This document shows, piece by piece, positions 2,684 through 52,256 of a DNA stretch of 64,000 nt. Both the position numbers and the translations under genes were made by a program. Position 1 is the stretch's first letter; every line of letters starts with the position of its first letter. The stretch spans positions 379,455 to 443,454 of the forward strand of contig CAWCKE010000005.1 in the NCBI GenBank assembly GCA_963796115.1, written 5' to 3'. Below the pieces are notes generated by a model. It worked only from the letters and a program-made list of their open reading frames with translations, had not been told where the DNA came from and did no database searches. This DNA is from an uncultured Acidimicrobiia bacterium. Lineage in GTDB: Bacteria; Actinomycetota; Acidimicrobiia; Spongiisociales; UBA11373.

Positions 2684-3205
2684 TTGCGGGTGGAGCGCCC
2701 GTATGCTCTCCCCATGTCCGAGTTGGCATCCGACTTCTATCGCCAGAACGAGTGGGCCACCCTCAAGCTCATCGAGGTGTGCCGCGGCCTGAGCGACGAG
2801 CAACTGGGGGCGGCCGCCGAGGGCACCTACGGGTCCATCAGGGCCACCCTCCGTCACCTGGTGTCCGCAGAGGCCAACTATGCCTTCCGGGTCTCCGACG
2901 GGAAGGTCCGCCGGCTGCCCCCGGACGAGCCGTGGCCTGGTTTCGATGCTCTGGCCGAGATGGTTTCCGCCCACGCGGCCGTCTTCGCTGGGGCCGCCCG
3001 CGGGGATACGAACCGGGTCATCCGGCTGGACGCCGACACCGAGCCGTACGACTCCGAAGCGGCCGTGATCCTCGTGCAGGCCTTCAACCACGCCACCGAG
3101 CACCGCAGCCAGATCTGCACGATCCTGACGACCTTGGGCATCCAACCCCCCGACATGAGCGGCTGGGAGTGGGGCCTCGCCGACGGCCGGATGCGCAAGG
3201 TCTGA
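2684..3205 (+). CDS. DinB/YfiT-like (DinB_2) family protein
   Basis: MSELASDFYRQNEWATLKLIEVCRGLSDEQL...HATEHRSQI pattern typical of DinB_2 metal-dependent hydrolase-like proteins; TTG at 2684 or ATG at 2714 possible starts. Confidence 0.55.
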   Translation: MRVERPYALPMSELASDFYRQNEWATLKLIEVCRGLSDEQLGAAAEGTYGSIRATLRHLVSAEANYAFRVSDGKVRRLPPDEPWPGFDALAEMVSAHAAVFAGAARGDTNRVIRLDADTEPYDSEAAVILVQAFNHATEHRSQICTILTTLGIQPPDMSGWEWGLADGRMRKV

Positions 3206-3373
3206 TCGGGCTGAGGGCTACCTGGAGGGCGTCGTACAGCCGCGAGCGTGAGCGCGGACGTGCTCTACGACCTCATGGGGCCAATCGACCGCTGACGGCA
3301 CACTCCGCATGGGCCACGTGAGCGCGGAGGCTGGGCGAGAGTAGATTGCATTCAGGTGCGGAAGGGAGAAGGC

Positions 3374-4131
3374 GTGAAACGTTTCCTGGTGCTGGCTCTG
3401 TTGGCGGGCGTTCTGGTGGCGATGCCGGCGGCCGGGTGCCGCGGTCGACGGCGATGAGGGCATGAGCCCAGGCTGCGCGGCGCTCAACTCTCCGGCGTGG
3501 GACGGGGATTACGGCGAGGGGGCCATCAACGACCTGTTCTATGCAGGAGAGGTCATCACCGCGGCTGCGTCCCTATCCACGACGGATCTCTTGGTCCGAG
3601 TGGTGGACGGTCTCGAGGTGCTGCTCCTCGTCGATACGAGCGTGGTTGATAGCGCGGACGCCCCGGGGACGGTGAGTTGGAGAGTTCCCTTCAACGGCGT
3701 GTATGCGGTCGTGTGGCGGATCGTCATGCCGAACGGGTTCTCGCGGGCGCCGCGGAGTATTGCCGCGTCCTGGGAGGTGAGTTGCACTCCGGCGGTCTGC
3801 CGCCGGCTGTTTCGGTGTGCCGTCGACCATTGTCGGCACCGGGGGTGATGATGTGCTGGTGGGGACGGCGGGGCCGGACGTGATCTCCGGGCTGGGCGGC
3901 AACGACACCATCCGCGGCCTGGGCGGGGACGATCTGGTGTGCGGCGGCAACGGCGACGACCTGCTCGCCGGGGGCGGCGGCAACGACCGTCTGCGGGGCG
4001 GCGACGGGGACGACACCCTCTTGGGCAGATGGGGGGACGACTTCCTGGGCGGCGGTGCCGGGGCCGATCTGGCCAACGGCGGCCTGGGCACCGACGTCTG
4101 TTGGAGCGAAGCCGAAACCGCCTGCGAGTAG
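3374..4131 (+). CDS. Secreted RTX-type calcium-binding repeat protein (signal peptide + unknown domain + GGxGxD beta-roll repeats), split into three frames by two indels (~3455 and ~3840)
   Basis: GTG 3374 preceded by GGAAGGGAGAAGG SD; VKRFLVLALLAGVLVAMPAAG signal peptide; 3462..3848 middle ORF; 3817..4131 ORF carries GGDDVLVGTAGPDVISGLGGNDTIRGLGGDDLVCGGNGDDLL... nonapeptide repeats. Confidence 0.55.
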
Positions 4132-8688: not shown

Positions 8689-10620
8689 CTAGGCGCTGAA
8701 GCCCAGCTCCCGCAGCCTCGCCCGCACCGAGGCGTCGGCGAGCAGGGCGGCGAGGGCGGCCACGGCAGGGCGGGAACGGCGCTCCTCGAGGACCGCCAGG
8801 TCGAACCGCTCCTCCTGGACGAACAGGAAGCCGAGGCCGGCGGCGGCGGCGATCACGTCGAGGGTCACTCCCCAGTCGGCGCGCCCCTGGGCCACCGCGG
8901 CGGCCACCGCGTGGTGAGTGCGCGGCTGGTTGGTGTGGCCGTCGGGGCGGAGGCCGCCCAGCAGGCGATCGATGAGGGCCCGGGTGCCGCTCCCCGGATT
9001 GCGGTTGACCATCCGGTGCCCTCCGGCCCGCACGGCATCGAGGAAGGCGGGCAGATCGGGGACATCGAGAGCGCTGCCCCGGCGGAAGGCCACCCCCTGC
9101 CGCCGGCCGTACCCGCCCAGCAGGCCGACGCCCGGGGGGAGGAAGGGCCGGTTGTACTCCCCGGTGGCCTCGTCCATGAGGTGGATGCCGGCCACATCCC
9201 CTTCTCCGCGGGCGAGGGCGGCCAGGCCGGCGGTGGAGCCCACCTTGATCGACTTGACGGTGAAGCCGCGTTCGGCGAGCAGGCCCAACAGGTAGTCGAG
9301 GCCGACGCAGTGGCTGCCGATGGCGACCAGGTCGGCGGGGCGCGCCGATCGCCGGATGAGGCGAACGGCGACCTGCTCCCCTTCGGCGACGTACTCGGTG
9401 GCCGCCGGGATGCGCAGGAAGCCGTCGGCCCGGCCGAAGGCGGTGACGCTCCCCGAGCCCGCCCCCAGGGGGTAGGCGGCGAGGCCGGCCTTGCCCTCCA
9501 CGAGATCGACGAGCACGTACTCGGTGCGGCCCGTCTCCGAGTTGATCCGCAGCGGCGCCACCGCCTCGACGACCGCGCCCTCCTCCTCCGTGCGCCCGGC
9601 GAGGCGGCGGAGGAGGGGAGCGACGAACTCGTGGAAGGTGAAGATGGCCGAGGTGGGGAAGCCGGGGAGCACCACCACCGGCCGGCCGGCGACGACGGCG
9701 AGGAGGATTGGCTTGCCCGGCTTGAGGGCCACCCCGTGCACCACCACCCCGGCCGACCCGGGCAGGCGCCCGGCCAGGCGGTGCACGACGGCGGCGTTCA
9801 GGTCGCCCTCGCCCTTGGAGGTGCCGCCCGACAGGAGCACGACGTCCACGGCGCCGGGCCCGGTCAGCAGGGCCTCGAGGGCACCCTCGAGGCGCGGCTC
9901 GTCGTCGGGCAGGACGCCGGCCGGGACCGGGTCGCCGCCCAGCTCGGCCACCGCGTCGAGCAGCAGGCGCTGGTTGGAGTCGTACACCGAGCCGGTGGGG
10001 AGGGGGGACCCCGGGGGGACGATCTCGTCGCCGGTGGAGAGCACCGCCACCCGGGGCCGGCGCAACACCCGGACCCGGTCGAGCCCCACCGCGGCCAGCA
10101 CCCCGGTGTCCTGCGCGGTGAGCACCCGGCGGCGGAGCAGGACCAGGTCGCCGCGGCCGATGTCCGACCCGGCGAAGGTGACGTTGGATCCCGGGGCCAC
10201 CGGGCGCTGCACCGCGATGCCCTCGCCGGCCGGCCGGGTGTGCTCGACCATGACGATCGCGTCGGCCCCCCGCGGGACCACCCCTCCGGTGGCGATGGGC
10301 ACCGCCCATCCCGCCTCCAACTGGAACCCCGGCGGCGGCTCCTGCCCGGCGGCCAGCGAGAGGGAGGAGACCCCCAGGGACACGGGGTGCAGCTCCTCGG
10401 CCCCGGAGGTGTCGGCCGCCCGCACCGCGAAGCCGTCCACGTTGCTGCGGTCGAAAGCGGGCACGTCCACCGGGGAGAACACGTCGGCCGCCAGCACCCG
10501 TCCGTGCGCCTCCGCCAGCGGCACCTCCTCGTCCGTGGGTGACAGGTGCGAGCAGGCGGCGGCGAAGCGGCGGTGGGCCTCCGCCTCGTCCAACACGTCG
10601 AGGAACTGGCGCTGTCTCAC
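8689..10620 (-). CDS. moeA: Molybdopterin molybdotransferase MoeA fused to a C-terminal periplasmic-binding-protein-like (ModA/PBP-like) domain
   Basis: The N-terminal ~400 aa are MoeA (MoeA_N, MoCF_biosynth GGTSKGEGD, MoeA_C). The C-terminal ~230 aa are a PBP-like fold. The start overlaps the stop of the upstream moeA paralogue. Confidence 0.8.
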   Translation of the reverse strand: MRQRQFLDVLDEAEAHRRFAAACSHLSPTDEEVPLAEAHGRVLAADVFSPVDVPAFDRSNVDGFAVRAADTSGAEELHPVSLGVSSLSLAAGQEPPPGFQLEAGWAVPIATGGVVPRGADAIVMVEHTRPAGEGIAVQRPVAPGSNVTFAGSDIGRGDLVLLRRRVLTAQDTGVLAAVGLDRVRVLRRPRVAVLSTGDEIVPPGSPLPTGSVYDSNQRLLLDAVAELGGDPVPAGVLPDDEPRLEGALEALLTGPGAVDVVLLSGGTSKGEGDLNAAVVHRLAGRLPGSAGVVVHGVALKPGKPILLAVVAGRPVVVLPGFPTSAIFTFHEFVAPLLRRLAGRTEEEGAVVEAVAPLRINSETGRTEYVLVDLVEGKAGLAAYPLGAGSGSVTAFGRADGFLRIPAATEYVAEGEQVAVRLIRRSARPADLVAIGSHCVGLDYLLGLLAERGFTVKSIKVGSTAGLAALARGEGDVAGIHLMDEATGEYNRPFLPPGVGLLGGYGRRQGVAFRRGSALDVPDLPAFLDAVRAGGHRMVNRNPGSGTRALIDRLLGGLRPDGHTNQPRTHHAVAAAVAQGRADWGVTLDVIAAAAGLGFLFVQEERFDLAVLEERRSRPAVAALAALLADASVRARLRELGFSA

Positions 10621-11879
10621 CCCGCCTCCTCCCGCCGGTACAGGTGCACCTCCACGTCCGCTCCCTCGGGAAAGCCCTCCGATCCCTCGGGGATGATGAC
10701 GAAGCCGTCGGCGGTGGTCACCGAGGAGAGCGCCGAGGCTCCCCCGATGGCGAGCGGCTCGACTTGGCCGCCGCGCACACGCACCCGGGCGTAGTCGGTG
10801 CGCCCGACCTGGGAGACCAGGCGGGCCGCCAGCGGGAGGGTGGACACCGGGTAGGGCAGGGCGGGCGGCAGGCCGCCGAGGGCGCGGATCACCGGCCCGG
10901 CGAAGAAGTCGTAGCCCACCAGGCAGGAGACCGGGTTGCCGGGGAGCAGCAGCACCCGCGCCTCTCCGATGCGGCCGATGCCGGTAGGGGAAGAGGGGCG
11001 CATGGCCACCCCGTGAATCAACAGCTCACCCAGTCCGGCGACGAGCAGCGGCACCCAGTCCTCCCGGCCCACCGAGGCCGCCCCGGCGGTGATGATCACC
11101 TCCGTCCCCGGCCGGCCCAGCGCCTCACGCAGGGCCGCCGGGTCGTCGGGGAGGCGGAGAGAGCTCTCCACGACGCCGCCGTCGCGGGCCACCAGCGCGG
11201 CCAGCATCGGGCCGTTGGAGTCGGTGATCCTGGTGCCCGTGGGGCGCTCGCCGGGGGGCAGCAGCTCGTTGCCCGAGACGATGAGGCGCACCCGGGGGCG
11301 CCGGTGCACGGCCACCCGCGGGCAGCCCACGCTGGAGAGCAGGCCGACGTCCTGGGCCAGCAGGCGCCGGCCGGCCGGCACCACCGGGTCGCCGCGGCGT
11401 ACGTCCTCGCCCACCCGGCCCACGTTGCGCCCGGCGGCGACCGCCGCCCGCGCCTCGAGCCGGCCCGCGACCTCGGCGGCGTCCTCGGCGGGCAGGACGG
11501 AGTCGGCCCCTTCGGGTACGGGCGCCCCGGTCATGATGCGGCAGGCGGCGCCCGGGGCCAGCGGCCCGGTGGGAGCCCGGCCGGGCATCGATTCCCCTGC
11601 GACGGCCAGGATCACCGGGTTGTAGGGGGAGGCCCCGAAGGTGTCGGCGGCGCGGAGCGCGTACCCGTCCATGGTCGCCCGGGGGAACAGGGGGATGTCC
11701 ACCTCGCTGACCACCGGGGCAGCGGCCACTCGCCCGGCGCATTCGGCCAGGGGCACCTCCTCGGCGGGGAGAGGGGAGAGGCCTTCGAGGGCGGCGGCGA
11801 GGGCCTCGGCGACCGAGGCGCGGTGGCGGAAGCCGCGCATGCGCACGTCCTCGGTGCCCCCTCCCACCGCCATCAGCAT
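10617..11879 (-). CDS. moeA: Molybdopterin molybdotransferase MoeA (second paralogue)
   Basis: MRGFRHRASVAEALAAALEGLSPLPAEEVPLAE...GAASVGREDW... full MoeA; real start at MLM/MRGF (11837-11879), upstream part of the 514-aa ORF is junk. Confidence 0.8.
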   Translation of the reverse strand: MLMAVGGGTEDVRMRGFRHRASVAEALAAALEGLSPLPAEEVPLAECAGRVAAAPVVSEVDIPLFPRATMDGYALRAADTFGASPYNPVILAVAGESMPGRAPTGPLAPGAACRIMTGAPVPEGADSVLPAEDAAEVAGRLEARAAVAAGRNVGRVGEDVRRGDPVVPAGRRLLAQDVGLLSSVGCPRVAVHRRPRVRLIVSGNELLPPGERPTGTRITDSNGPMLAALVARDGGVVESSLRLPDDPAALREALGRPGTEVIITAGAASVGREDWVPLLVAGLGELLIHGVAMRPSSPTGIGRIGEARVLLLPGNPVSCLVGYDFFAGPVIRALGGLPPALPYPVSTLPLAARLVSQVGRTDYARVRVRGGQVEPLAIGGASALSSVTTADGFVIIPEGSEGFPEGADVEVHLYRREEAG

Positions 11880-41276: not shown

Positions 41277-41388
41277 CGGGCCTCCCTCCTGGCCGCATCC
41301 CCCTGGTCGCACGCTCGCGCAGCGGTGGGCACGCCGGCGGCGCGCCTCCATAGGCTCAGGTGCGGCCCACCGATATGATGGCCGCGCC

Positions 41389-44025
<2,637 letters not shown>

Positions 44026-44060
44026 GGGGAGGCTGCGGCGAGAGCCGCGAGGGTCCCCCG
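44026..44060 (+). terminator. GC-rich compound stem-loop immediately after secA stop
   Basis: GGGGGAGGCTGCGGCGAGAGCCGCGAGGGTCCCCC read directly; no U-tract (common in high-GC actinobacteria). Confidence 0.35.
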
Positions 44061-44173
44061 GGAACCTCGAGCGAGCCTGCTTCCGTCTGACCGTTTGGGA
44101 GCCTCAGGTTCTTTCGTCGGGTGAGGATGGCCCGGGGATCGGGGCTGGATCGGCCGAGCGGCAGGAGTGCGCC

Positions 44174-45476
44174 ATGGCGATGATGCGTGAGAACCGTTGG
44201 CTCTTCGTGGTACTCGGGACGGCCCTGCTGGTGGCCGCGTGCGGCGGCGAGCCCGCGGCGACGTCATCGACGGCCCCCGGCAACTCGACTTCCACTTCCG
44301 GCCCGACTGCCACTCCGGGGGTCCTTGCCGTCAGCGAGGGAGTGGTGCGGTCGGAGCCGGCGGCAGCAGCCCCGGTGGCCGAGCTGGCGGCGGGCTTCAA
44401 CGAAGCCGGGTTCGCCCTGTGGCGGACCCAATCGGCGGACGGCAACCTGGTGTTCAGCCCGGCCAGCATCGGCCACGCGCTGCTGATGGCCCGGGCCGCC
44501 GCCGACGAGGCGACCGGGGCCGCCATCGACCTGGCGCTCTCCCTGCCCACCGGCGCCGCTGCCCACCAGGCCTGGAACGCGATCGACCAGGACATCGCCC
44601 GGGTGACGGGGCAAATGGACGATCTGACGGTGGCCATCGCCGACCGCATCTGGCCCCGCCTGGACGTGCGGCCCGATCAGGCGTGGGTGGACCTGCTCGC
44701 CGCCGAGCACGGGGTCACCACCCAGCCCCTGGACTTGGCCGGCGACCCCGAGGGCAGCCGGGATGTCATCAACGCCTGGGTGGGCGAGCAGACACAGGGG
44801 TTGATCCCCGAGCTGCTGCCGCAGGGGTTCATCGATGCCAGCACGGTGCTGGTGCTCACCGATGCCCTCTACTTCAAGGCGCGCTGGGAGAGGATCTTCG
44901 GCAAGTACGAACCGGTGATGGGCACCTTCACCCGTCTCGACGGCTCCACCCTCGAGGTCGAGTTCATGCGAGAGCTGGAGCTGGCCGACCGGCGAGGGCG
45001 CGGTGACGGCTTCGTCGCCGCCGAGATCCCCTATGTGGGAGGCGCCTTCTCGATGCTGCTCATAGTGCCCGACGAGGGCCGGTTCGCCGAGGTGCGCGAA
45101 CGCCTCGGTCAGGATTTGCTCGACGAGATCGACGCCAGCTTCACCACCGGTCCCTTCGAGCTGCTCATGCCCGGCTGGTCCGACAAGACCCAGCTCGACC
45201 TGATGGGTTGGCTCACCGAGATCGGCGCAGCGCCCGGCCTCTACCCGGGCATCACCCCCGAGGCCTTCCTGGACGCGGCGGTGCATGCCGCCGACATCAC
45301 CGTGGACGAGTGGGGCACCGTGGCCGCCGCGGCCACTGGCTTCGGCTTCGCCGAGAGCGGGCCGCCCGAGCCCGAGCTGACCGTGGCCGCCGACAAGCCG
45401 TTCCTGTACCTCATCCGCCACCGTGTCGAGCGGGCTGGTGCTCTTCGCCGGCCAGGTGGTGGATCCGACGGCCTGA
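44174..45476 (+). CDS. Serpin-family lipoprotein; indel near 45420 alters the last ~17 codons
   Basis: MAMMRENRWLFVVLGTALLVAACGG lipobox; serpin core; as sequenced ends ...PFLYLIRHRVERAGALRR..., but the -1 frame gives the canonical serpin C-terminus VSSGLVLFAGQVVDPTA* ending at 45476. Confidence 0.75.
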
Positions 45477-45518
45477 CGAGAGGCGTCGAGGCCGTCGGCG
45501 GGCACGGCTGAAGGCGCT

Positions 45519-46700
45519 TCACTCGGCGCTCTGCGGGTAGGGCTGGTGTTCGTGGGCGATCCGGTGGTGTCTTCGACAGAGCAGCCGCAGGTTGGCGAGT
45601 GCGGTCGGGCCTCCGTCGGCCCAGTGGGTGATGTGGTGGGCATCGCACCAGTGGGCGGGGGTGTCGCAGCCCGGGTGGGTGCAGCCCCGGTCGCGGTGGT
45701 TGAGGGCCCGGCGTAGGGAGGCGGGGACTACCCGGGTGCGCCGGCCGGCGGCGATGGGCTGGCCGTGGCGGGTGACGATCGGGGTGATGGCGGCGTCGCA
45801 GGCCAGGCGGCGCACCGCGTCGAGGGTGACCGGGCCGCAGTCCAGGTCGACTGAGGCCGTCGGCGGCGAGCTGGTCGACGCTGACGGTGACGGTGAGGTG
45901 GGGGCGTTCCCCGCCCACCTGGGGCCGGTCGGAGGAGTCGAGGTGGCGGCGGCAGATCTCCACCAGGGCGTCGGCCCGGCGCTGCTGGGGGCTGCGGCCA
46001 TCGTCGGGGTCCAGGACGGCCGGGTAGGCGAGGGAGCCGACCGCGGCCATGACCAGCGCCCCCGATTCGGGGTCCAGGTCACCGTCCAGGCGCACCATGC
46101 CCGCCCAGGTGGAGGAGAGGTGCAGGCGGCGCCGGGCGAACGCCTGCTCCGCGTCGGCCCGGGCGCCGTCCGGGTCGGCCAGTCGGCGCCAATGGGCCAG
46201 CGCCAGGGGGAACACCCGGGCCGACAGGCGGCGGGCCTGAGCGACCAGCAGGGCCTCATCCCGGGCGAACGATGCCGGAGAGGAGTCCCGGGCGGCGGCC
46301 AGTAGCCGCACCCTCGGCTCGGACAGCTCCCCAGTCGGCGAACACCTCCCGGGTGAGGGGCATCGAGCGCAGCGCCCGGGCTACGCCCACCCGGCTGCGG
46401 CACACCGGCGCCGGATCCCCGGTCCGGGCCATCAGCCAGCCGGTAGCCGAACCGAACCCCTCAACCGCCGGGATGCCCCGCTGTTCGATCCTCCCCAGCA
46501 GTGCCGCCGACCGGGCCTCCAGACAGGCCACCCGGTGGCGCACCTCCAGAAACTCCTCCACCAGGCCAACATCCGACAGCAGATCCAGCCGCGTCGGCTC
46601 GTCATCGGTGGACCGGACCGTGTATCGAGCAGGGCTCCCGCAGTCACACCTCACCGTATCAAGCCGGTACGACACGTTCGGATCGGCGCGCCGAACCAGT
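45519..46700 (-). pseudogene. DUF222 / HNH endonuclease (REP13E12-like) protein, broken into three frames
   Basis: N-terminal DUF222 pieces in ORF 46256..46954 (GFGSATGWLMARTGDPAPVCRSRVGVARAL) and 45241..46311 (RLLAAARDSSPASFARDEAL...), C-terminal HNH (HWCDAHHITHWADGGPTALANLRLLCRRHH) in ORF 45519..46403. Confidence 0.65.
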
Positions 46701-46843
46701 GCGGAGCCCCTCAGCACGCCGCCGGGAGGCGCTGCCCGTGCCGACGGTGTCGTTTGCTCTCTGCTGCAGAAAGGGTGCTGCCGGGCCCTTCCCGGGCCAT
46801 TGCGAGGAGTACCTTGGCCGGGTATCGGGGGGAGGAGGAGACC

Positions 46844-47285
46844 CGTGAAGATCCAGAGGTCGATCGATACGGCGGCGTCCCCGCAGAGGGTGTGGCCGTT
46901 GCTGGTGCAGCCGGGGGAGATCCTCAAATGGTTCACCCTGCTGGAGAGCTTCAACTACACCAGTGAGCCACCCTACGGTCCGGGGTCGACCTTCCACTAT
47001 GACGAGCGCTCCGGGGGCCGCCTCATGAAGTGCGACTACCGGGTGACCGACTGGCTGGAGAACCAGCGGTTCGCCTTCACCCTGGTTTCCGGGCCGATGC
47101 CGAAGGATGACCAGGTGTGGAGGATCGAGGCTCTTCCGGTGGGCAGCCGGGTCACCCTGGAGGAGGACTTGCTGCTGCCCGGCGGGGTGTTCGGCCGGAT
47201 GCTGCTGGCTCTCGGGGTGGGCAGGACGATCGGCAAGCACCTGGAGGAGATGCTCATCGACCTCAAGAGGCTCGCCGAAGCCTGA
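46844..47285 (+). CDS. SRPBCC (START/Bet v1-like, polyketide cyclase/dehydrase family) protein
   Basis: GTG 46844 with GGAGGAG SD; VKIQRSIDTAASPQRVWPLLVQPGEILKWF... Confidence 0.65.
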
Positions 47286-47345
47286 TTGCGGCGGGCCGCA
47301 GACCGTCCCGGTAAGCGCTTTCTCGCTAGGATCGGGGCGGCCCTC

Positions 47346-47816
47346 ATGGCCCATTCCCGGACCCGCACCCTCGCCTGGCCGCCGCCGGCAGTCTTCGAGG
47401 CGACGCTGGTGGCAGCCTCTCGCCTCGGTTTCGCTGTCTCCCAGGCTGACCAACAGGGCGGGCGCCTGTACCTGGACGGACCCCGCCGGCTCGCCCGTTT
47501 CCCCGTCCGCTACACAGTGTCGGTAACCGACAGCGGCCTGGGCGGAACCGCGGTCCACATCGCCTGGCAACCCGCCAGCGCGTGCTGCCTTGGCCCCTTC
47601 CCTCCGGGGCCGGCGGCGCCGCCCGCCTCCACCGGGGCATCCACCAGACTCTGGGCGGCGGGCGATCACGCTGACCGCCGCCGGCCGGGCCCCGGGCGGC
47701 CCCGGCCTCGCCTGACCCTGGATACGCGTTCAGCTCGTCAAGGCCTCATTCCCATTTACGGGGTTGTGGCTCGTGCAGAACAGCCCGGCGCGACGTGTCC
47801 CGAGCCATGGGAGTGA
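47346..47816 (+). CDS. Hypothetical protein (first ~85 aa look domain-like; remainder Pro/Gly/Arg-rich); may be N-terminal part of the downstream M23 gene
   Basis: MAHSRTRTLAWPPPAVFEATLVAASRLGFAVSQADQQGGRLYLDGPRRLARFPVRYTVSVTDSGLGGTAVHIAWQPAS. Confidence 0.3.
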   Translation: MAHSRTRTLAWPPPAVFEATLVAASRLGFAVSQADQQGGRLYLDGPRRLARFPVRYTVSVTDSGLGGTAVHIAWQPASACCLGPFPPGPAAPPASTGASTRLWAAGDHADRRRPGPGRPRPRLTLDTRSARQGLIPIYGVVARAEQPGATCPEPWE

Positions 47817-48372
47817 GCTCTTCGGCGAACGGTACGCGATCGACTTCGTCGGAGTCGACGATCGTCACCACAGTGCAACGATCAGAGACTGGCGAACGCT
47901 CCTTTCCTCGGAGCCTCCAGACCGCTTCGTCGGGTTCGGTCGGCGCATCCTGGCCCCGGTCCCGCGGCGTCGTTGCGGCGGTGCACGATGGCGAGTCCGA
48001 CCACCCCGCCCGGCGGTCACAGTTGGCGCTCATTCGGTACACGTTCGGCCAGGCATCCCGCATGCGCCAAGGCCTCGGAGCAATCGCAGGCAACCATGTC
48101 ATCATCTCGCAGGCCCGGGGATCACACGTCGCCTTGGTCCATCTCAAGGCAGGTTCGATTCGCGTCTCTGTGGGCCAAGAGGTGGCCGAGGGAGAACACC
48201 TTGCCGATTGCGGCAACTCGGGGAACTCGACTGCGCCGCCTCAGCACCCCACACCTCCCCGCGAGACGACCGGCGGCGCTTCCCCCGGGACCGCCTATGT
48301 CCTGGACGGCCGGGCGTTCGCCCAGAGCCCTCCTTCCTCCCGGGGTTCGCTTCCTGCCGGGCACTAACCTGA
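47764..48372 (+). pseudogene. M23-family metallopeptidase, reading frame broken at least twice
   Basis: The ORF 47795..48367 frame carries GNHVIISQARGSHVALVHLKAGSIRVSVGQEVAEGEHLADCGNSGNSTAP..., which is the M23 core up to the expected HLHF motif and is then lost. The N-terminal part, in ORF 47764..48372, is in a different frame. Confidence 0.5.
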
Positions 48373-48379
48373 GGGCACG

Positions 48380-49499
48380 ATGAACCAGGACCCACGCGCC
48401 GCCATCAAGGAGTTGCGCACCCGCCTCCACGACGCCCGGAGGTTCCTTTGACGTCGACGCGAAGGCCGCCGGCCTCGCGGCGCTGAGGGCGCGCGCCGCC
48501 GAACCGAACCTCTGGCAGGATCCCGACCGGGCCCGGCAGGTGACCCGTCGCCTGGCCCGTGACGAGTCCATCGTCGGCCGGGACCAGCGTCTGACGACGG
48601 CCATCGACGACGCGGAGACCCTGCTGGGCCTGGCCGAGGAAGAGGGCGATGCCCAGGCCGCCGCCGACGCCGCCGCCGAGCTGGCGGGGATCGAAGAAGA
48701 GCTGGCGGACCTGGAGCAGGAGAGCCTCTACTTCGGCGAGTACGACGACCGGGCGGCCATCTTCAGCGTGCACGCCGGGGCCGGCGGGGTGGACGCCGCC
48801 GACTGGGCCGACATGCTGCTGCGCATGTACTTGCGTTTCCTGGAGCGGCGCGGCTTCCAGGTGGAGGTGGACGAGGTCCTGGAGGCCGAGGAAGCCGGCA
48901 TCCGCTCGGCCACCCTCACGGTCCGCGGCGAGCACGCGTACGGCATCCTCTTGGGGGAGAAGGGCGTCCATCGGCTGGTGCGCATCAGCCCCTTCGACTC
49001 CAATGCCCGCCGCCACACCTCTTTCGCCGGTGTGGACGTGCTCCCCGAGGTGGAGATGGCCGAGGTGGAGATCGACCCCGAGGACCTGCGCATCGAGACC
49101 TTCCGTTCCCAGGGGCACGGCGGCCAGTCGGTGAACACCACCGACTCGGCAGTGCGCATCACCCATCTGCCCACCGGGGTCGTGGCCGCTTGCCAGGCGG
49201 AGCGCTCGCAGATGCAGAATCGGGCGCGGGCAATGGCCCTGCTGGCCTCCCGGCTGGCCGAGCGGGCCCGGCAGGAGCACCAGGCCCAGATGGATGAGAT
49301 CCGCGGCGACCAGGGGGAAGCGGCCTGGGGCCGGCAGATCCGTTCCTACGTGCTGCAGCCCTACCAGATGGTCAAGGACCTGCGCACCGACGTCGAGGTG
49401 GGCAACGTGGAGGGGGTGCTCGACGGCGACCTGGACCGCTTCGTCGAGGGCTACCTGCACTGGCGGCGGGCCCGGGAGGAGCAGGCCCGGCGCGGCTGA
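48380..49499 (+). CDS. prfB: Peptide chain release factor 2 with programmed +1 ribosomal frameshift at CTT TGA C (48446-48452)
   Basis: Frame 0 reads MNQDPRAAIKELRTRLHDARRFL and then hits the in-frame TGA. An internal SD-like GGAGG lies upstream of CUU UGA C. The +1 frame continues DVDAKAAGLAALRARAAEPNLWQDPDRARQVTRRLA... and reaches the SPFDSNARRHTS and GGQ motifs (QGHGGQSVN). Confidence 0.9.
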
Positions 49500-49524
49500 C
49501 CCCACCCCCGCGCAGGGGGTGGAT
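49500..49524 (+). terminator. Stem-loop CCACCCCCGCGCAGGGGGTGG after prfB
   Basis: 8-bp perfect inverted repeat with 5-nt loop read directly; followed by A-rich not T-rich tract. Confidence 0.3.
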
Positions 49525-49618
49525 GCGCTTCGAAAAAACCTCCCACCGCTAACCTGCGGCGTGCGTCCGTGGCGGAGTGGGCGAGCGATGACACCGCGGG
49601 CGCCCACACCGCGAGAGG

Positions 49619-50347
49619 ATGGCCATGATCAGGCTTCAGGGCGTCACCAAGTTATATGAGGGCGGGGTGGTGGCCGCCCACGACGTCACCCTGGAGATCG
49701 CCAAGGGCGAGTTCGTCTTTCTGGTGGGCCCCTCCGGTTCGGGGAAGTCGACCCTGATCCGACTGCTCCTCCGCGAGGAGCTGCCCACGAGCGGTGACCT
49801 GTGGGTGGCCGGCAAGCACGTGAACAAGCTGGCCTCCTGGAAGGTGCCCCTGCTCCGCCGCTCGGTGGGCACCGTGTTCCAGGACTTCAAGCTGCTGCCC
49901 AACAAGACCGTCTACGAGAACGTGGCCTTCGCCCTCGAGGTCATCGGCCGTCCTCGCCACGTCATCCGCCAGCAAGTGCCCCAGGTGCTCCGCCTGGTCG
50001 GCCTGTCGGCCAAGGCCGACCGCATGCCCCGGCAGCTGTCCGGTGGGGAGCAGCAGCGAGTGTCCATCGCCCGGGCCTTCGTCAACCGGCCCTTGATCTT
50101 GTTCGCCGACGAGCCCACCGGGAACCTGGACCCGGGCACCTCGGTGGGGATCATGCGGCTGCTCGACCGCATCAACCGCACGGGGACCACCGTGGTCATG
50201 GCCACCCACGACCACGCCATCGTGGACGCCATGCGGCGCCGGGTGGTGGAGCTGGACCGGGGAGGGGTGGTGCGCGACGAGAGTCACGGCGGCTACCAGA
50301 TGGTTTCCCCTGTCCCGGATTCCTACGAAGAGGACGACGGGGAGTAA
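49619..50347 (+). CDS. ftsE: Cell division ATP-binding protein FtsE
   Basis: GPSGSGKST Walker [15 protein letters not shown] signature, [10 protein letters not shown] Walker B; follows prfB as in most bacteria. Confidence 0.9.
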
Positions 50348-50350
50348 GCG

Positions 50351-51232
50351 GTGCGCTTCCAGTACCTGTTCAGCCAGACGGTCCAGAGCATCCGGCGCAA
50401 CCCGCTGGTCGTGGCCAGCGCGGTGGTGGCGGTCCTGGTCACCCTGGTGCTGGTATTCGGCTCCATCGTCGTCCGCTGGTCCATCGACCAGGACATCGGC
50501 CGCTGGGACGACAACGTGCGGGTGATCGCCTGGCTCGGGGACGATCTCACCGTGGACCAGGTGACCGCCCTGCAGGCGGACATGCAGACATGGCCCGAGG
50601 TGGACGAGGTCGTCTACTTCTCCAAGTCCCAGGCGCTCGAGGAGTTCCGGGAGCTGTTCGCCGACCAGCCGGCGCTCATCGAGGTGGTCGAAGACGACCC
50701 GTCGGTGCTCCCCGCCTCGCTGCGCATAAAGCCGGTGGAGGCGGGCAGCTACGACGTGATCCAGAACCGGGTGGCGGTGATCCCCGGGGTGCAACAGGTG
50801 GCGGCGGCCGGGGCGGAGATCGACGCGCTGGTGGCCCGCTCCAACCGCATGAGCACGTTCGCGGTGGGGATCCTCATCGTGCTCGGGGCCTCCGCCCTCG
50901 TGCTGATCGCCAACACCATCCGCATGGCGGTGTACGCCCGGCGGGAGGAGATCGGGATCATGCGCCTGGTGGGCGCGAGCAACTGGTTCATCCGGGTGCC
51001 GTTCCTGCTCGAAGGCTTGTTCGAAGGAATCGCCGGCGCGGCCCTCGCCGCCCTGCTGGTCGGCCTGGGCCACAAGCCCATCGTGCAGCTGCTGAGTACC
51101 GTCACCGACCCCGATGCCATCGCGGTGCCCTTCCAGTTCCTGCTGCAGCAGTCGCTCCTGGTGCTGGCCTTCGGGGCTACCACCGGCCTGTTGGGCAGCG
51201 CCCTGGGCATGTGGGGCACCCTGCGCGACTGA
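50351..51232 (+). CDS. ftsX: Cell division permease FtsX
   Basis: VRFQYLFSQTVQSIRRNPLVV N-terminus, periplasmic loop, four TMs; stop overlaps smpB ATG (TGATG). Confidence 0.85.
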   Translation: MRFQYLFSQTVQSIRRNPLVVASAVVAVLVTLVLVFGSIVVRWSIDQDIGRWDDNVRVIAWLGDDLTVDQVTALQADMQTWPEVDEVVYFSKSQALEEFRELFADQPALIEVVEDDPSVLPASLRIKPVEAGSYDVIQNRVAVIPGVQQVAAAGAEIDALVARSNRMSTFAVGILIVLGASALVLIANTIRMAVYARREEIGIMRLVGASNWFIRVPFLLEGLFEGIAGAALAALLVGLGHKPIVQLLSTVTDPDAIAVPFQFLLQQSLLVLAFGATTGLLGSALGMWGTLRD

Positions 51233-51720: not shown

Positions 51721-51903
51721 TGGGGCTGCCTGCCCGGCTTGAAGCCGGGCAGGCTCTACTGTCAGTGGAAGCCGCCCTCCGCTCGGCCGCCGGCGGGCGG
51801 CCTGCGCGCCTCGGCGGGCCCGAGCGGGCCGGGACGAGGCCAGGCGGGAATCGCCGCTGTGCGCCCCGCCGTTGTACAGTCTGTGGTGCGTTTCGCGCCT
51901 TCG

Positions 51904-52256
51904 GGGGTGAACTGGTTTCGACTCTGAGGGTTGAAGCGCCGGAAGCGAGCCGAGGTCCCCGGAGTCCTCGTTAAAGAGCCGGGACAAACAATGAGTGCCG
52001 AAGACAACTTCGCACTGGCCGCCTAGTTAGGTGACCCGTCCGCCCGGAGGGCTCCCCCCTCGCCGGTGTCGGGCGTCGCAATGGGGGATGCCCCCGCCGG
52101 GGTTCCGGGACCGGCGGGTCAAGCCCAACTCCGGATAGGGCGCAGGGATACGTGCCGGTAGCGTCCCGGCGCCCGAAACAAAGCTATCGGCTGCGCTCGG
52201 AGATGTCGGCGTGGAAGCTCAGAGGACCGGGGTTCGACTCCCCGCACCTCCACCGG
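51904..52256 (+). ncRNA. ssrA: tmRNA (ssrA)
   Basis: 5' GGGGGTGAACTGGTTTCGAC... tRNA-like acceptor/D region; tag reading frame ...GCC GAA GAC AAC TTC GCA CTG GCC GCC TAG (…AEDNFALAA*); 3' T-arm GGTTCGACTCCCC and acceptor GCACCTCCACC at 52228-52256. Confidence 0.85.

What the first reader, a model, noticed from the sequence alone, without database searches (positions are those of the whole stretch)
45519..48372. Degraded accessory islet (DUF222/HNH, SRPBCC, hypothetical, M23 peptidase) wedged between the serpin and prfB
prfB-ftsEX-smpB-ssrA and secA blocks are core. The intervening 3 kb holds a REP13E12-like DUF222/HNH endonuclease gene (a mobile, repeated family in actinobacteria) broken into three frames, a START-like protein, an unknown 85-aa domain and an M23 peptidase that loses its HLHF motif. 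The multiple lesions in the HNH and M23 genes look like real decay rather than sporadic error. This suggests an old insertion undergoing erosion.
Basis: partly seen in the sequence, partly recalled or inferred. Interest (0 to 1): 0.55.

Follow-up and report, generated by a model that had tools for sequence, protein, structure and literature searches.

The report
Accessory gene islet between secA and prfB
A 4.35-kb strain-variable patch of accessory genes sits at a recurrent insertion site between two core genes of an Acidimicrobiia bacterium; only the M23 peptidase piece is demonstrably dead, and the other "breaks" are small insertions of a kind found all over this contig, probably assembly errors, so the finding is ordinary.

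Summary

The islet is real and accessory. secA and prfB lie 200 nt or less apart in 41 of 59 Acidimicrobiia loci. An 84% relative carries feo genes in that spacer instead. The variable block runs 44017-48361, so it also includes the serpin.

Erosion is shown here only for M23. It is a 503-bp internal fragment, 97.4% identical to intact 245-aa alleles, and lacks both ends, including HLH.

The other lesions are all small insertions:
- one in the serpin
- four in HNH
- one (+2) in the small gene
- one in M23

At least nine similar breaks hit housekeeping genes elsewhere in the window (cydB, cofD, an aldehyde dehydrogenase and others), and 13 of 15 are +1 type. With the extra bases removed, every islet gene shows dN/dS of 0.1-0.35 and no stop codons. 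Close relatives have intact ORFs. Consensus error is therefore the more likely cause.

Sister lineages are losing the HNH gene: one has an internal deletion and one an IS truncation. Copies 89-92% identical in DNA sit at another locus, so the gene looks mobile.

The parts
41389..44025 (+). secA, the left core flank. Homology with the 84% relative L005 ends at 44016.
   Evidence: ORF intact. blastn L005 1635-4293 matches window 41362-44016. tblastn 83% aa identity.
44174..45476 (+). Lipoprotein serpin, part of the variable block. A +1 insertion (G, about 45425) shifts the last 16 codons. The true stop is at 45474-45476.
   Evidence: Pfam Serpin 8.5e-56. L084 has the same gene with the canonical C-terminus ...IRHRSSGLVLFAGQVVDPTA* and one base fewer. 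dN/dS 0.10. Absent from L005.
45519..46676 (-). DUF222/HNH (REP13E12-type) gene. The ORF is 45519-46647 (GTG start), preceded by a conserved leader of about 30 nt. It is broken by four single-base insertions at about 45851, 46334, 46612 and 46620.
   Evidence: Pfam DUF222 1.3e-18 and HNH 1.4e-4. 86% aa identity to the intact 373-aa P0121. DNA homology to L100/L101 is confined to 45529-46676, with gaps only as extra bases in the window. dN/dS 0.29.
45565..46659 (.). Segment missing in the 92%-identical contig L084, which keeps both ends of the HNH gene. L084 is therefore an internal-deletion derivative, not an empty site.
   Evidence: blastn L084 2-619 matches 44939-45564 and L084 620-1666 matches 46660-47707.
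46845..47285 (+). SRPBCC/START-like gene, intact, 146 aa.
   Evidence: Pfam Polyketide_cyc2 8.1e-9, 36.3 bits against a cut-off of 27.4. 95% aa identity to L084. dN/dS 0.11-0.13. Homologues sit in unrelated contexts.
47346..47674 (+). Small orphan gene (108 aa once repaired) that always follows the SRPBCC gene. Predicted mini helix-grip fold. A +2 insertion near 47580 shifts its last 30 codons or so.
   Evidence: SRPBCC-hyp pairs occur in L102-L104. AF2 pLDDT 83. Foldseek hits BamC-N, Bet v 1 and CoxG at E about 6e-5. The extra 2 nt are seen against L084 and L093.
47708..47734 (.). 27-nt filler of unknown origin between the breakpoint shared by L084/L093/L102 (47707) and the M23 fragment.
   Evidence: Homology of L084, L093 and L102 ends at 47707. 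M23 homology starts at 47735. No match elsewhere.
47735..48237 (+). Internal fragment of an M23 metallopeptidase gene (codons about 17-184 of 245). It has no start and no HLH motif or C-terminus, and carries one extra base near 47964.
   Evidence: 97.4% DNA identity to L097/L098 and 97.0% to L099, which encode intact P0001/P0002. tblastn covers residues 15-187 only. Pfam partial M23 match.
48238..48361 (.). 124-nt filler with no detectable homology, lying between the M23 fragment and the conserved prfB leader.
   Evidence: Alignment to L097 collapses after 48237. No significant match in the loci or the window. L004, L005 and L006 homology starts at 48361-48380.
48380..49499 (+). prfB, the right core flank, with its normal programmed +1 frameshift site CTT TGA C at 48446-48452. 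This is not a lesion.
   Evidence: Sequence. 94-99% aa identity to L001 and L004. No indels against L001-L003 over 48556-50814.

Best explanation
The 4,354 nt between secA and prfB (variable block 44017-48361) is a composite, strain-variable accessory islet at a recurrent insertion site of Acidimicrobiia.

It was assembled from independent pieces:
- a lipoprotein serpin
- a selfish DUF222/HNH (REP13E12-type) ORF that moves, or is exchanged, as little more than the ORF plus a 30-nt leader
- a two-gene module of an SRPBCC protein plus a mini helix-grip orphan, which in another lineage sits next to a tyrosine integrase at tRNA-Asn
- a 503-bp internal scrap of an M23 peptidase gene, joined to its neighbours through short filler DNA. 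I infer illegitimate recombination or end joining.

Only the M23 scrap is demonstrably non-functional in this genome.

The seven small lesions are short insertions. There is one in the serpin, four in HNH, a +2 in the orphan and one in M23. They belong to the same class as the frame breaks scattered through housekeeping genes of the whole window. They are most likely residual insertion errors of the assembly. I infer this; no reads were available. If that is right, the serpin, HNH, SRPBCC and orphan genes are probably intact in the organism.

Loss of the HNH gene is real, but it is seen in sister lineages rather than here.
For: Hot spot:
- 41 of 59 loci have 200 nt or less between secA and prfB. 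Eighteen have inserts of 268-4,239 nt with unrelated cargo.
- L005 has ideR, feoA, feoB and feoC in the spacer.
- Homology with L004, L005 and L006 stops at 44016 and resumes at 48361-48380.

Composite make-up:
- Breakpoints against close relatives lie at 45564/46660 (L084), 46806 (L102), 47680 (L103) and 47707 (L084, L093, L102).
- L094 carries SRPBCC, a membrane protein, hyp, an integrase and tRNA-Asn.
- The HNH copies in L100 and L101 are 92% and 89% identical in DNA, only within 45529-46676, and sit next to a pyrophosphatase gene.

M23 fragment.

Error reading:
- Single Pfam domains span frame junctions in Aldedh, Cyt_bd_oxida_II, CofD, an epimerase and ABC_tran elsewhere in the window.
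- 13 of 15 non-islet breaks are +1 type, p=0.007.
- All seven islet lesions are extra bases relative to short-read contigs or other intact references.
- Counting only breaks found by the same codon-usage scan, the islet has 2 in 4.35 kb against 15 in 59.65 kb elsewhere. By my own Poisson estimate this is not an excess (P(2 or more) about 0.3).
- dN/dS is 0.10-0.35 with no stops after repair.
Against: With close references, the islet shows 7 lesions in 4.35 kb. secA, prfB, ftsE, ftsX and smpB (about 6.5 kb) show none, and L001-L003 show no indels over 2.26 kb. The breaks are therefore not evenly spread. They avoid essential genes, which is also what real mutation filtered by selection would give.

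Several inserted bases do not extend homopolymers. I cannot name the sequencing chemistry. No reads were available, so the error reading is an inference.

The origin of the two filler stretches is unknown.
Confidence: 0.68

Rival explanations
1. One reading: the frameshifts are real mutations, and the whole islet (serpin, HNH, orphan, M23) is a set of pseudogenes in a lineage that accumulates small insertions in dispensable genes. The cyd operon, cofD and others would be decaying in the same way.
For: Breaks cluster in non-essential genes and spare secA, prfB, ftsEX and smpB. M23 is a true fragment. The HNH gene at this locus is deleted in L084 and IS-truncated in L006. Some insertions do not extend homopolymers.
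Against: The spectrum is almost entirely insertions: 13 of 15 breaks elsewhere are +1 type and 7 of 7 in the islet are insertions. From general knowledge, natural bacterial indel spectra lean towards deletions. There are no stop codons or deletions in the broken genes. dN/dS is 0.10-0.35. Contigs 92-98% identical carry intact versions. Another long-read-style contig (L100, named contig_87017) shows the same kind of broken DUF222 gene and many short unannotated gene calls.
Confidence: 0.2
2. The M23 fragment and its junctions are an assembly chimera: a piece of a gene that lies elsewhere in the genome, or in a co-occurring strain, was spliced into the contig. On this view the real genome has no M23 remnant here.
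For: The fragment is 97.4% identical to a gene found in a different context in L097. No other contig reproduces the junctions at 47707/47735 or 48237/48361. The contig is error-prone overall.
Against: The fragment is internal, only 503 bp, and flanked on both sides by unique filler (27 and 124 nt) within otherwise collinear sequence. That shape is unusual for read or contig chimeras. It also carries window-specific substitutions.
Confidence: 0.08

Closest known systems
REP13E12 / DUF222-HNH repeat family of Mycobacterium tuberculosis and other Actinobacteria
   Same: The architecture is the same: an N-terminal DUF222 domain and a C-terminal HNH motif in about 373 aa. Close copies occur at different loci in different genomes. 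The literature lists the family among repeated elements and says it lacks a defined function (PMC10589994, PMC13061034).
   Different: The host is Acidimicrobiia. Only one copy lies in the 64 kb available, so multi-copy status in this genome is unknown. No phage attB role was tested. Here the shared unit is just the ORF plus a leader of about 30 nt, with no terminal repeats.
Chromosomal integration hot spots / small genomic islets between conserved core genes
   Same: Core genes that are adjacent in most relatives are separated here and in 17 other lineages by unrelated cargo. That cargo includes candidate defence genes: PDC-S01 in L054 and PDC-S09 in L065.
   Different: The window has no integrase, tRNA, transposase or flanking direct repeats, so no integration mechanism can be read from it. 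An integrase next to tRNA-Asn appears only with the SRPBCC-hyp module in L094.
Actinobacterial M23 metallopeptidases (P0001-like, 245 aa)
   Same: Residues 15-187 are 94-96% identical. The conserved SPARRVPSHG...YAIDF segment and the GNSGNST segment are present.
   Different: The start codon, the first 14-16 residues, the HLH metal-binding motif and the last 58-61 residues are absent. This is a gene fragment, not a member that could function.
SRPBCC / Bet v 1 helix-grip proteins
   Same: The 146-aa protein matches Polyketide_cyc2. The neighbouring orphan is predicted to fold as a short helix-grip resembling BamC-N, PR-10 and CoxG.
   Different: The orphan has no sequence-family match and only six homologue clusters. 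No ligand or function is known for either protein.

Membership tests
DUF222/HNH (REP13E12-type) | DUF222 domain followed by a C-terminal HNH nuclease motif in one polypeptide of about 370 aa | tested here: met
   Pfam DUF222 1.3e-18 and HNH 1.4e-4 on the ORF pieces.
DUF222/HNH (REP13E12-type) | Uninterrupted reading frame | tested here: not met
   The assembled sequence has four single-base insertions relative to L101. Whether they exist in the organism could not be tested.
DUF222/HNH (REP13E12-type) | Repeated or mobile: several copies per genome, or close copies at different loci | tested here: inconclusive
   There is no second copy within the 64-kb window. Copies 89-92% identical in DNA lie at a different locus in L100 and L101. 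The rest of the genome was not available.
M23 metallopeptidase | Complete catalytic domain with the HxH metal-binding motif | tested here: not met
   Homology to intact alleles ends at 48237, just before HLHM. The C-terminal 58 residues are not found in any frame. The Pfam match covers profile positions 32-81 of 96 only.
M23 metallopeptidase | Own start codon and N-terminus | tested here: not met
   Homology starts at codon 15-17. A stop codon lies just upstream at about 47713.
SRPBCC/START superfamily | Polyketide_cyc2-type domain above the curated threshold, in an intact ORF | tested here: met
   36.3 bits against a cut-off of 27.4, profile positions 2-139 of 142. The ORF 46845-47285 is intact. 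dN/dS 0.11.
Genomic island / accessory islet | Absent from the same site in related genomes and flanked by conserved core genes | tested here: met
   L005 has feo genes in the spacer instead. 41 of 59 loci have secA and prfB 200 nt or less apart.
Genomic island / accessory islet | Integration machinery or scars (integrase, tRNA target, flanking direct repeats) | tested here: not met
   The window holds no tRNA other than tmRNA at 51.9 kb. No integrase or transposase domain was found among the islet ORFs. Only chance-level repeats were found.
Pseudogene cluster (long-term erosion) | Relaxed selection (dN/dS near 1), stop codons, and deletions as well as insertions | tested here: not met
   dN/dS is 0.10-0.35. 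There are no stops after removal of the inserted bases, and all small lesions are insertions. Only the M23 truncations fit.

The most novel reading that the evidence does not exclude
The DUF222/HNH ORF, with its conserved leader of about 30 nt, is an autonomous homing-like selfish gene. On this reading its nuclease makes breaks at the secA|prfB spacer and similar sites. End-joining repair of such breaks would then explain both the recurrent, cargo-diverse insertions at this site across Acidimicrobiia and the capture of a 503-bp scrap of a gene from the same species (M23) together with short filler DNA. This would give the functionally undefined REP13E12 family a mechanism.
Probability: 0.08. 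Interest if true: 0.6.

Novelty: new member of a known kind. Interest (0 to 1): 0.25.

Why it matters
The value is mainly as a caution. In this contig, frameshifts cannot be read as pseudogenes, because the same insertion-type breaks hit cydB, cofD and other housekeeping genes. The only secure decay signal is structural: a gene fragment here, and deletions or an IS in relatives.

Two modest positive points remain. First, secA|prfB is a recurrent insertion site in Acidimicrobiia that sometimes holds candidate defence genes. Second, filled, internally deleted and IS-disrupted states of a REP13E12-type gene at one locus, plus near-identical copies at another locus, are usable material for asking how this family moves.

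Tried and rejected
- **Repeats.** I looked for terminal direct or inverted repeats around the HNH gene and the M23 fragment and found only chance-level matches.
- **Integration machinery.** The window has no tRNA or integrase; tmRNA is the only RNA gene.
- **Signals.** No promoter-like or terminator-like sites were found.
- **Second copies.** No other copy of any islet gene lies in the window.
- **Filler DNA.** The fillers at 47708-47734 and 48238-48361 have no homologue in the loci or the window. A very lenient tblastn with the M23 N- and C-termini found nothing above noise.
- **Microhomology.** I saw none at the L084 deletion junction (sequence).
- **M23 neighbours.** The natural neighbours of M23 in L097 are unrelated to anything in the window or to the hyp neighbours in L105.
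- **GC and frame breaks.** The link between local GC content and frame breaks is weak (p=0.03).
- **Weak GC3 as decay.** The weak GC3 of M23 looked at first like erosion. I rejected this because the intact allele has the same GC3 of 0.73.
- **Source lookup.** An exact-protein lookup of the SRPBCC product found nothing on record.
- **L006 orthology.** Whether the DUF222 remnant in L006 is orthologous (same insertion event) or an independent insertion could not be decided. It shows 61-71% aa identity against about 85% for the core genes.
Full report
**What is there**

The window is a 72% G+C Acidimicrobiia sequence. Its closest relatives by FtsX are uncultured Acidimicrobiia/Actinomycetota MAGs. 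Around the finding the gene order is:
- secA (41389-44025, +)
- a lipoprotein serpin (44174-, +)
- a DUF222/HNH gene on the minus strand
- an intact SRPBCC gene (46845-47285, +)
- a small ORF (47346-, +)
- an M23 remnant
- prfB (ATG 48380, with the normal CTT TGA C programmed frameshift at 48446-52)
- ftsE, ftsX, smpB and tmRNA (51903-52255)

**Is it accessory?**

- Against the 84% relative L005, DNA homology stops at the end of secA (44016) and resumes at 48362, 18 nt before the prfB start.
- L005 fills the same spacer with ideR/dtxR-feoA, feoA, feoB and feoC.
- L004 (94% FtsX) and L006 also diverge from the window upstream of 48361-48380.
- In 59 Acidimicrobiia loci holding both genes, secA and prfB are 200 nt or less apart in 41. 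Eighteen have inserts of 268-4,239 nt. The window's 4,354 nt is the largest.
- Cargo in the other lineages is unrelated: membrane proteins, an alpha/beta hydrolase-like protein, a nucleotidyltransferase (PADLOC PDC-S09), and a PLD-type nuclease plus a DUF4143 ATPase (PDC-S01).

The site is therefore a recurrent insertion point, and the serpin belongs to the islet.

**The islet is a mosaic**

Metagenome contigs 92-98% identical to parts of it break away at different points.
- L084 joins the serpin 3' end (to 45564) directly to 46660. It keeps about 36 nt of the HNH 3' end and about 17 nt of its 5' end, so it is an internal-deletion derivative rather than an empty site.
- L102, 98.5% identical to L084, differs upstream of 46806.
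- L103/L104 (84% DNA identity) have the DUF222 N-terminus, SRPBCC, hyp and then an alpha/beta hydrolase on the opposite strand.
- L084, L093 and L102 leave the window at 47707 and continue into a small membrane protein.
- L094 has SRPBCC, a membrane protein, hyp and a tyrosine integrase abutting tRNA-Asn.
- More distant SRPBCC homologues lie in unrelated contexts.
- L006 has a DUF222 remnant directly upstream of prfB, truncated by an IS with an rve-type transposase.

**The HNH gene**

The repaired protein is 86% identical to the intact 373-aa P0121 (MAG RBG_16_70_17) and 91% identical to P0172. Both lie at another locus, next to a pyrophosphatase gene.

DNA identity of 89-92% is confined to window 45529-46676. 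That span is the ORF plus a conserved leader of about 30 nt, which is also recognisable in L006. No terminal repeats were found. This fits a selfish, mobile or exchanged ORF of the REP13E12 type. The literature lists that family among repeated elements and says it lacks a defined function (PMC10589994, PMC13061034).

**The M23 remnant**

Window 47735-48237 is 97.4% identical in DNA to the middle of intact 245-aa genes in L097 and L098, and 97.0% to L099 (P0001, P0002). Homology ends abruptly on both sides. Only residues 15-187 are present in any frame. The start, the HLHM motif and the C-terminus are gone, and 27-nt and 124-nt fillers of unknown origin flank the piece. This is real structural decay.

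It is not old. dS to the intact alleles is 0.06-0.07, the same as ftsE against the 98%-identical (presumably conspecific) contig L001. Only about three changes are specific to the window. Its weak GC3 (0.73-0.75) is shared by the intact allele and that allele's neighbours, so it reflects the gene's origin rather than erosion.

**The small lesions**

Against intact references, every small lesion in the islet is an insertion:

| Gene | Position (approx.) | Extra bases |
|---|---|---|
| serpin | 45425 | +1 |
| HNH | 45851, 46334, 46612, 46620 | +1 each |
| orphan (hyp) | 47580 | +2 |
| M23 | 47964 | +1 |

A codon-usage Viterbi scan of the whole window found many same-strand frame switches that are not gene boundaries. 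Stitching the pieces and running Pfam showed single domains spanning the junctions in these genes:
- an aldehyde dehydrogenase (1610)
- cytochrome bd subunit II (16296)
- CofD (23455)
- an NAD-dependent epimerase (20751)
- an ABC ATPase (60037)
- two CydC/CydD-like ABC exporter genes (13345, 13522, 14996, 15120), for which only the 13345 junction falls inside a matched domain; at the other three the membrane and ATPase domains lie in different frames, so these breaks are inferred from the fused architecture

By frame arithmetic, 8 of the 9 confirmed breaks and 13 of all 15 non-islet breaks are +1 type (p=0.007). Counting only what the scan itself detects, the islet has 2 breaks in 4.35 kb against 15 in 59.65 kb elsewhere. 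By my own Poisson estimate this is not an excess (P(2 or more) about 0.3).

With the inserted bases removed, the islet genes have no stop codons. Their dN/dS values are 0.10 (serpin), 0.11-0.13 (SRPBCC), 0.15-0.35 (orphan), 0.29 (HNH) and 0.21 (M23 piece).

The pattern is an insertion-only spectrum shared with housekeeping genes, purifying selection, and intact ORFs in near-identical short-read contigs. It points to residual assembly error rather than long-term decay.

The counter-argument is that the flanking essential genes are clean: there are no indels against L001-L003 over 2.26 kb. Some insertions also do not extend homopolymers. Real, recent mutations filtered by selection therefore remain possible. 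I give that about 0.2.

**The orphan**

It has only six homologue clusters among 5.8 billion proteins, all 104-114 aa. Of those looked up, three lineages place it directly after an SRPBCC gene (L102, L103, L104), and L094 has a membrane-protein gene in between. No SRPBCC family match was found beside it in L105. An AlphaFold model (pLDDT 83) matches the BamC N-domain, Bet v 1/PR-10 and CoxG (Foldseek E about 6e-5, TM 0.64-0.70). It is therefore predicted to be a short helix-grip protein, a second START-like unit beside the first. Its function is unknown.

**Verdict**

The 'multiple lesions' are not good evidence of erosion in this contig. This is an ordinary kind of feature, and I score interest at 0.25.

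Noticed in passing
window 1610, 13345, 13522, 14996, 15120, 16296, 20751, 23455, 60037 (candidates: 4825, 11899, 26947, 29055, 29460, 53850): Frame breaks inside housekeeping genes: an aldehyde dehydrogenase, cydC/D-like genes, cydB, an epimerase, cofD and an ABC ATPase. 13 of 15 are +1 type. The contig looks insertion-error-prone, or the lineage carries many recent +1 mutations. Five of the breaks cluster in the cyd operon (12.6-16.3 kb).
   Followed up: partly
window 48446-48452: The canonical RF2 programmed +1 frameshift site CTT TGA C, preceded by GGAGG, lies in prfB. It is natural and should not be counted as a lesion.
   Followed up: yes
L094 1-2306: In another lineage the SRPBCC-hyp module sits immediately next to a tyrosine integrase that abuts tRNA-Asn (2213-2287). 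This suggests the module travels on a tRNA-targeting integrative element.
   Followed up: partly
L054 3922-7362; L065 6666-7529; L063 4673-7126: Other Acidimicrobiia carry candidate defence genes in the same secA|prfB spacer. L054 has a PLD-type nuclease plus a DUF4143 ATPase (PADLOC PDC-S01, 1.4e-65). L065 has a nucleotidyltransferase (PDC-S09). L063 has three unknown genes.
   Followed up: partly
L006 57-1489: An IS (HTH orfA plus an rve-type DDE transposase orfB) truncates the DUF222 gene directly upstream of prfB in an 84% relative.
   Followed up: partly
window 3201-4096: A 650-nt stretch with no coding signal (3201-3850) lies next to RTX-type GGxGxD repeat coding sequence (about 3861-4014). 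That repeat sequence resembles repeat-protein genes beside M23 in L097 and beside hyp in L105.
   Followed up: no
L100 (ENA ERZ25039461 contig_87017) 9870-11020: A 92%-identical DUF222/HNH copy in a long-read-style contig is itself broken by compensating frameshifts. The surrounding gene calls are short and lack Pfam hits. This suggests the same kind of assembly error in an independent data set.
   Followed up: partly
window 45432-45469 vs 45540-45577: A 38-nt direct repeat, 74% identical, links the serpin 3' end and the HNH 3' end on the opposite coding strand. It is probably chance in G+C-rich DNA.
   Followed up: no
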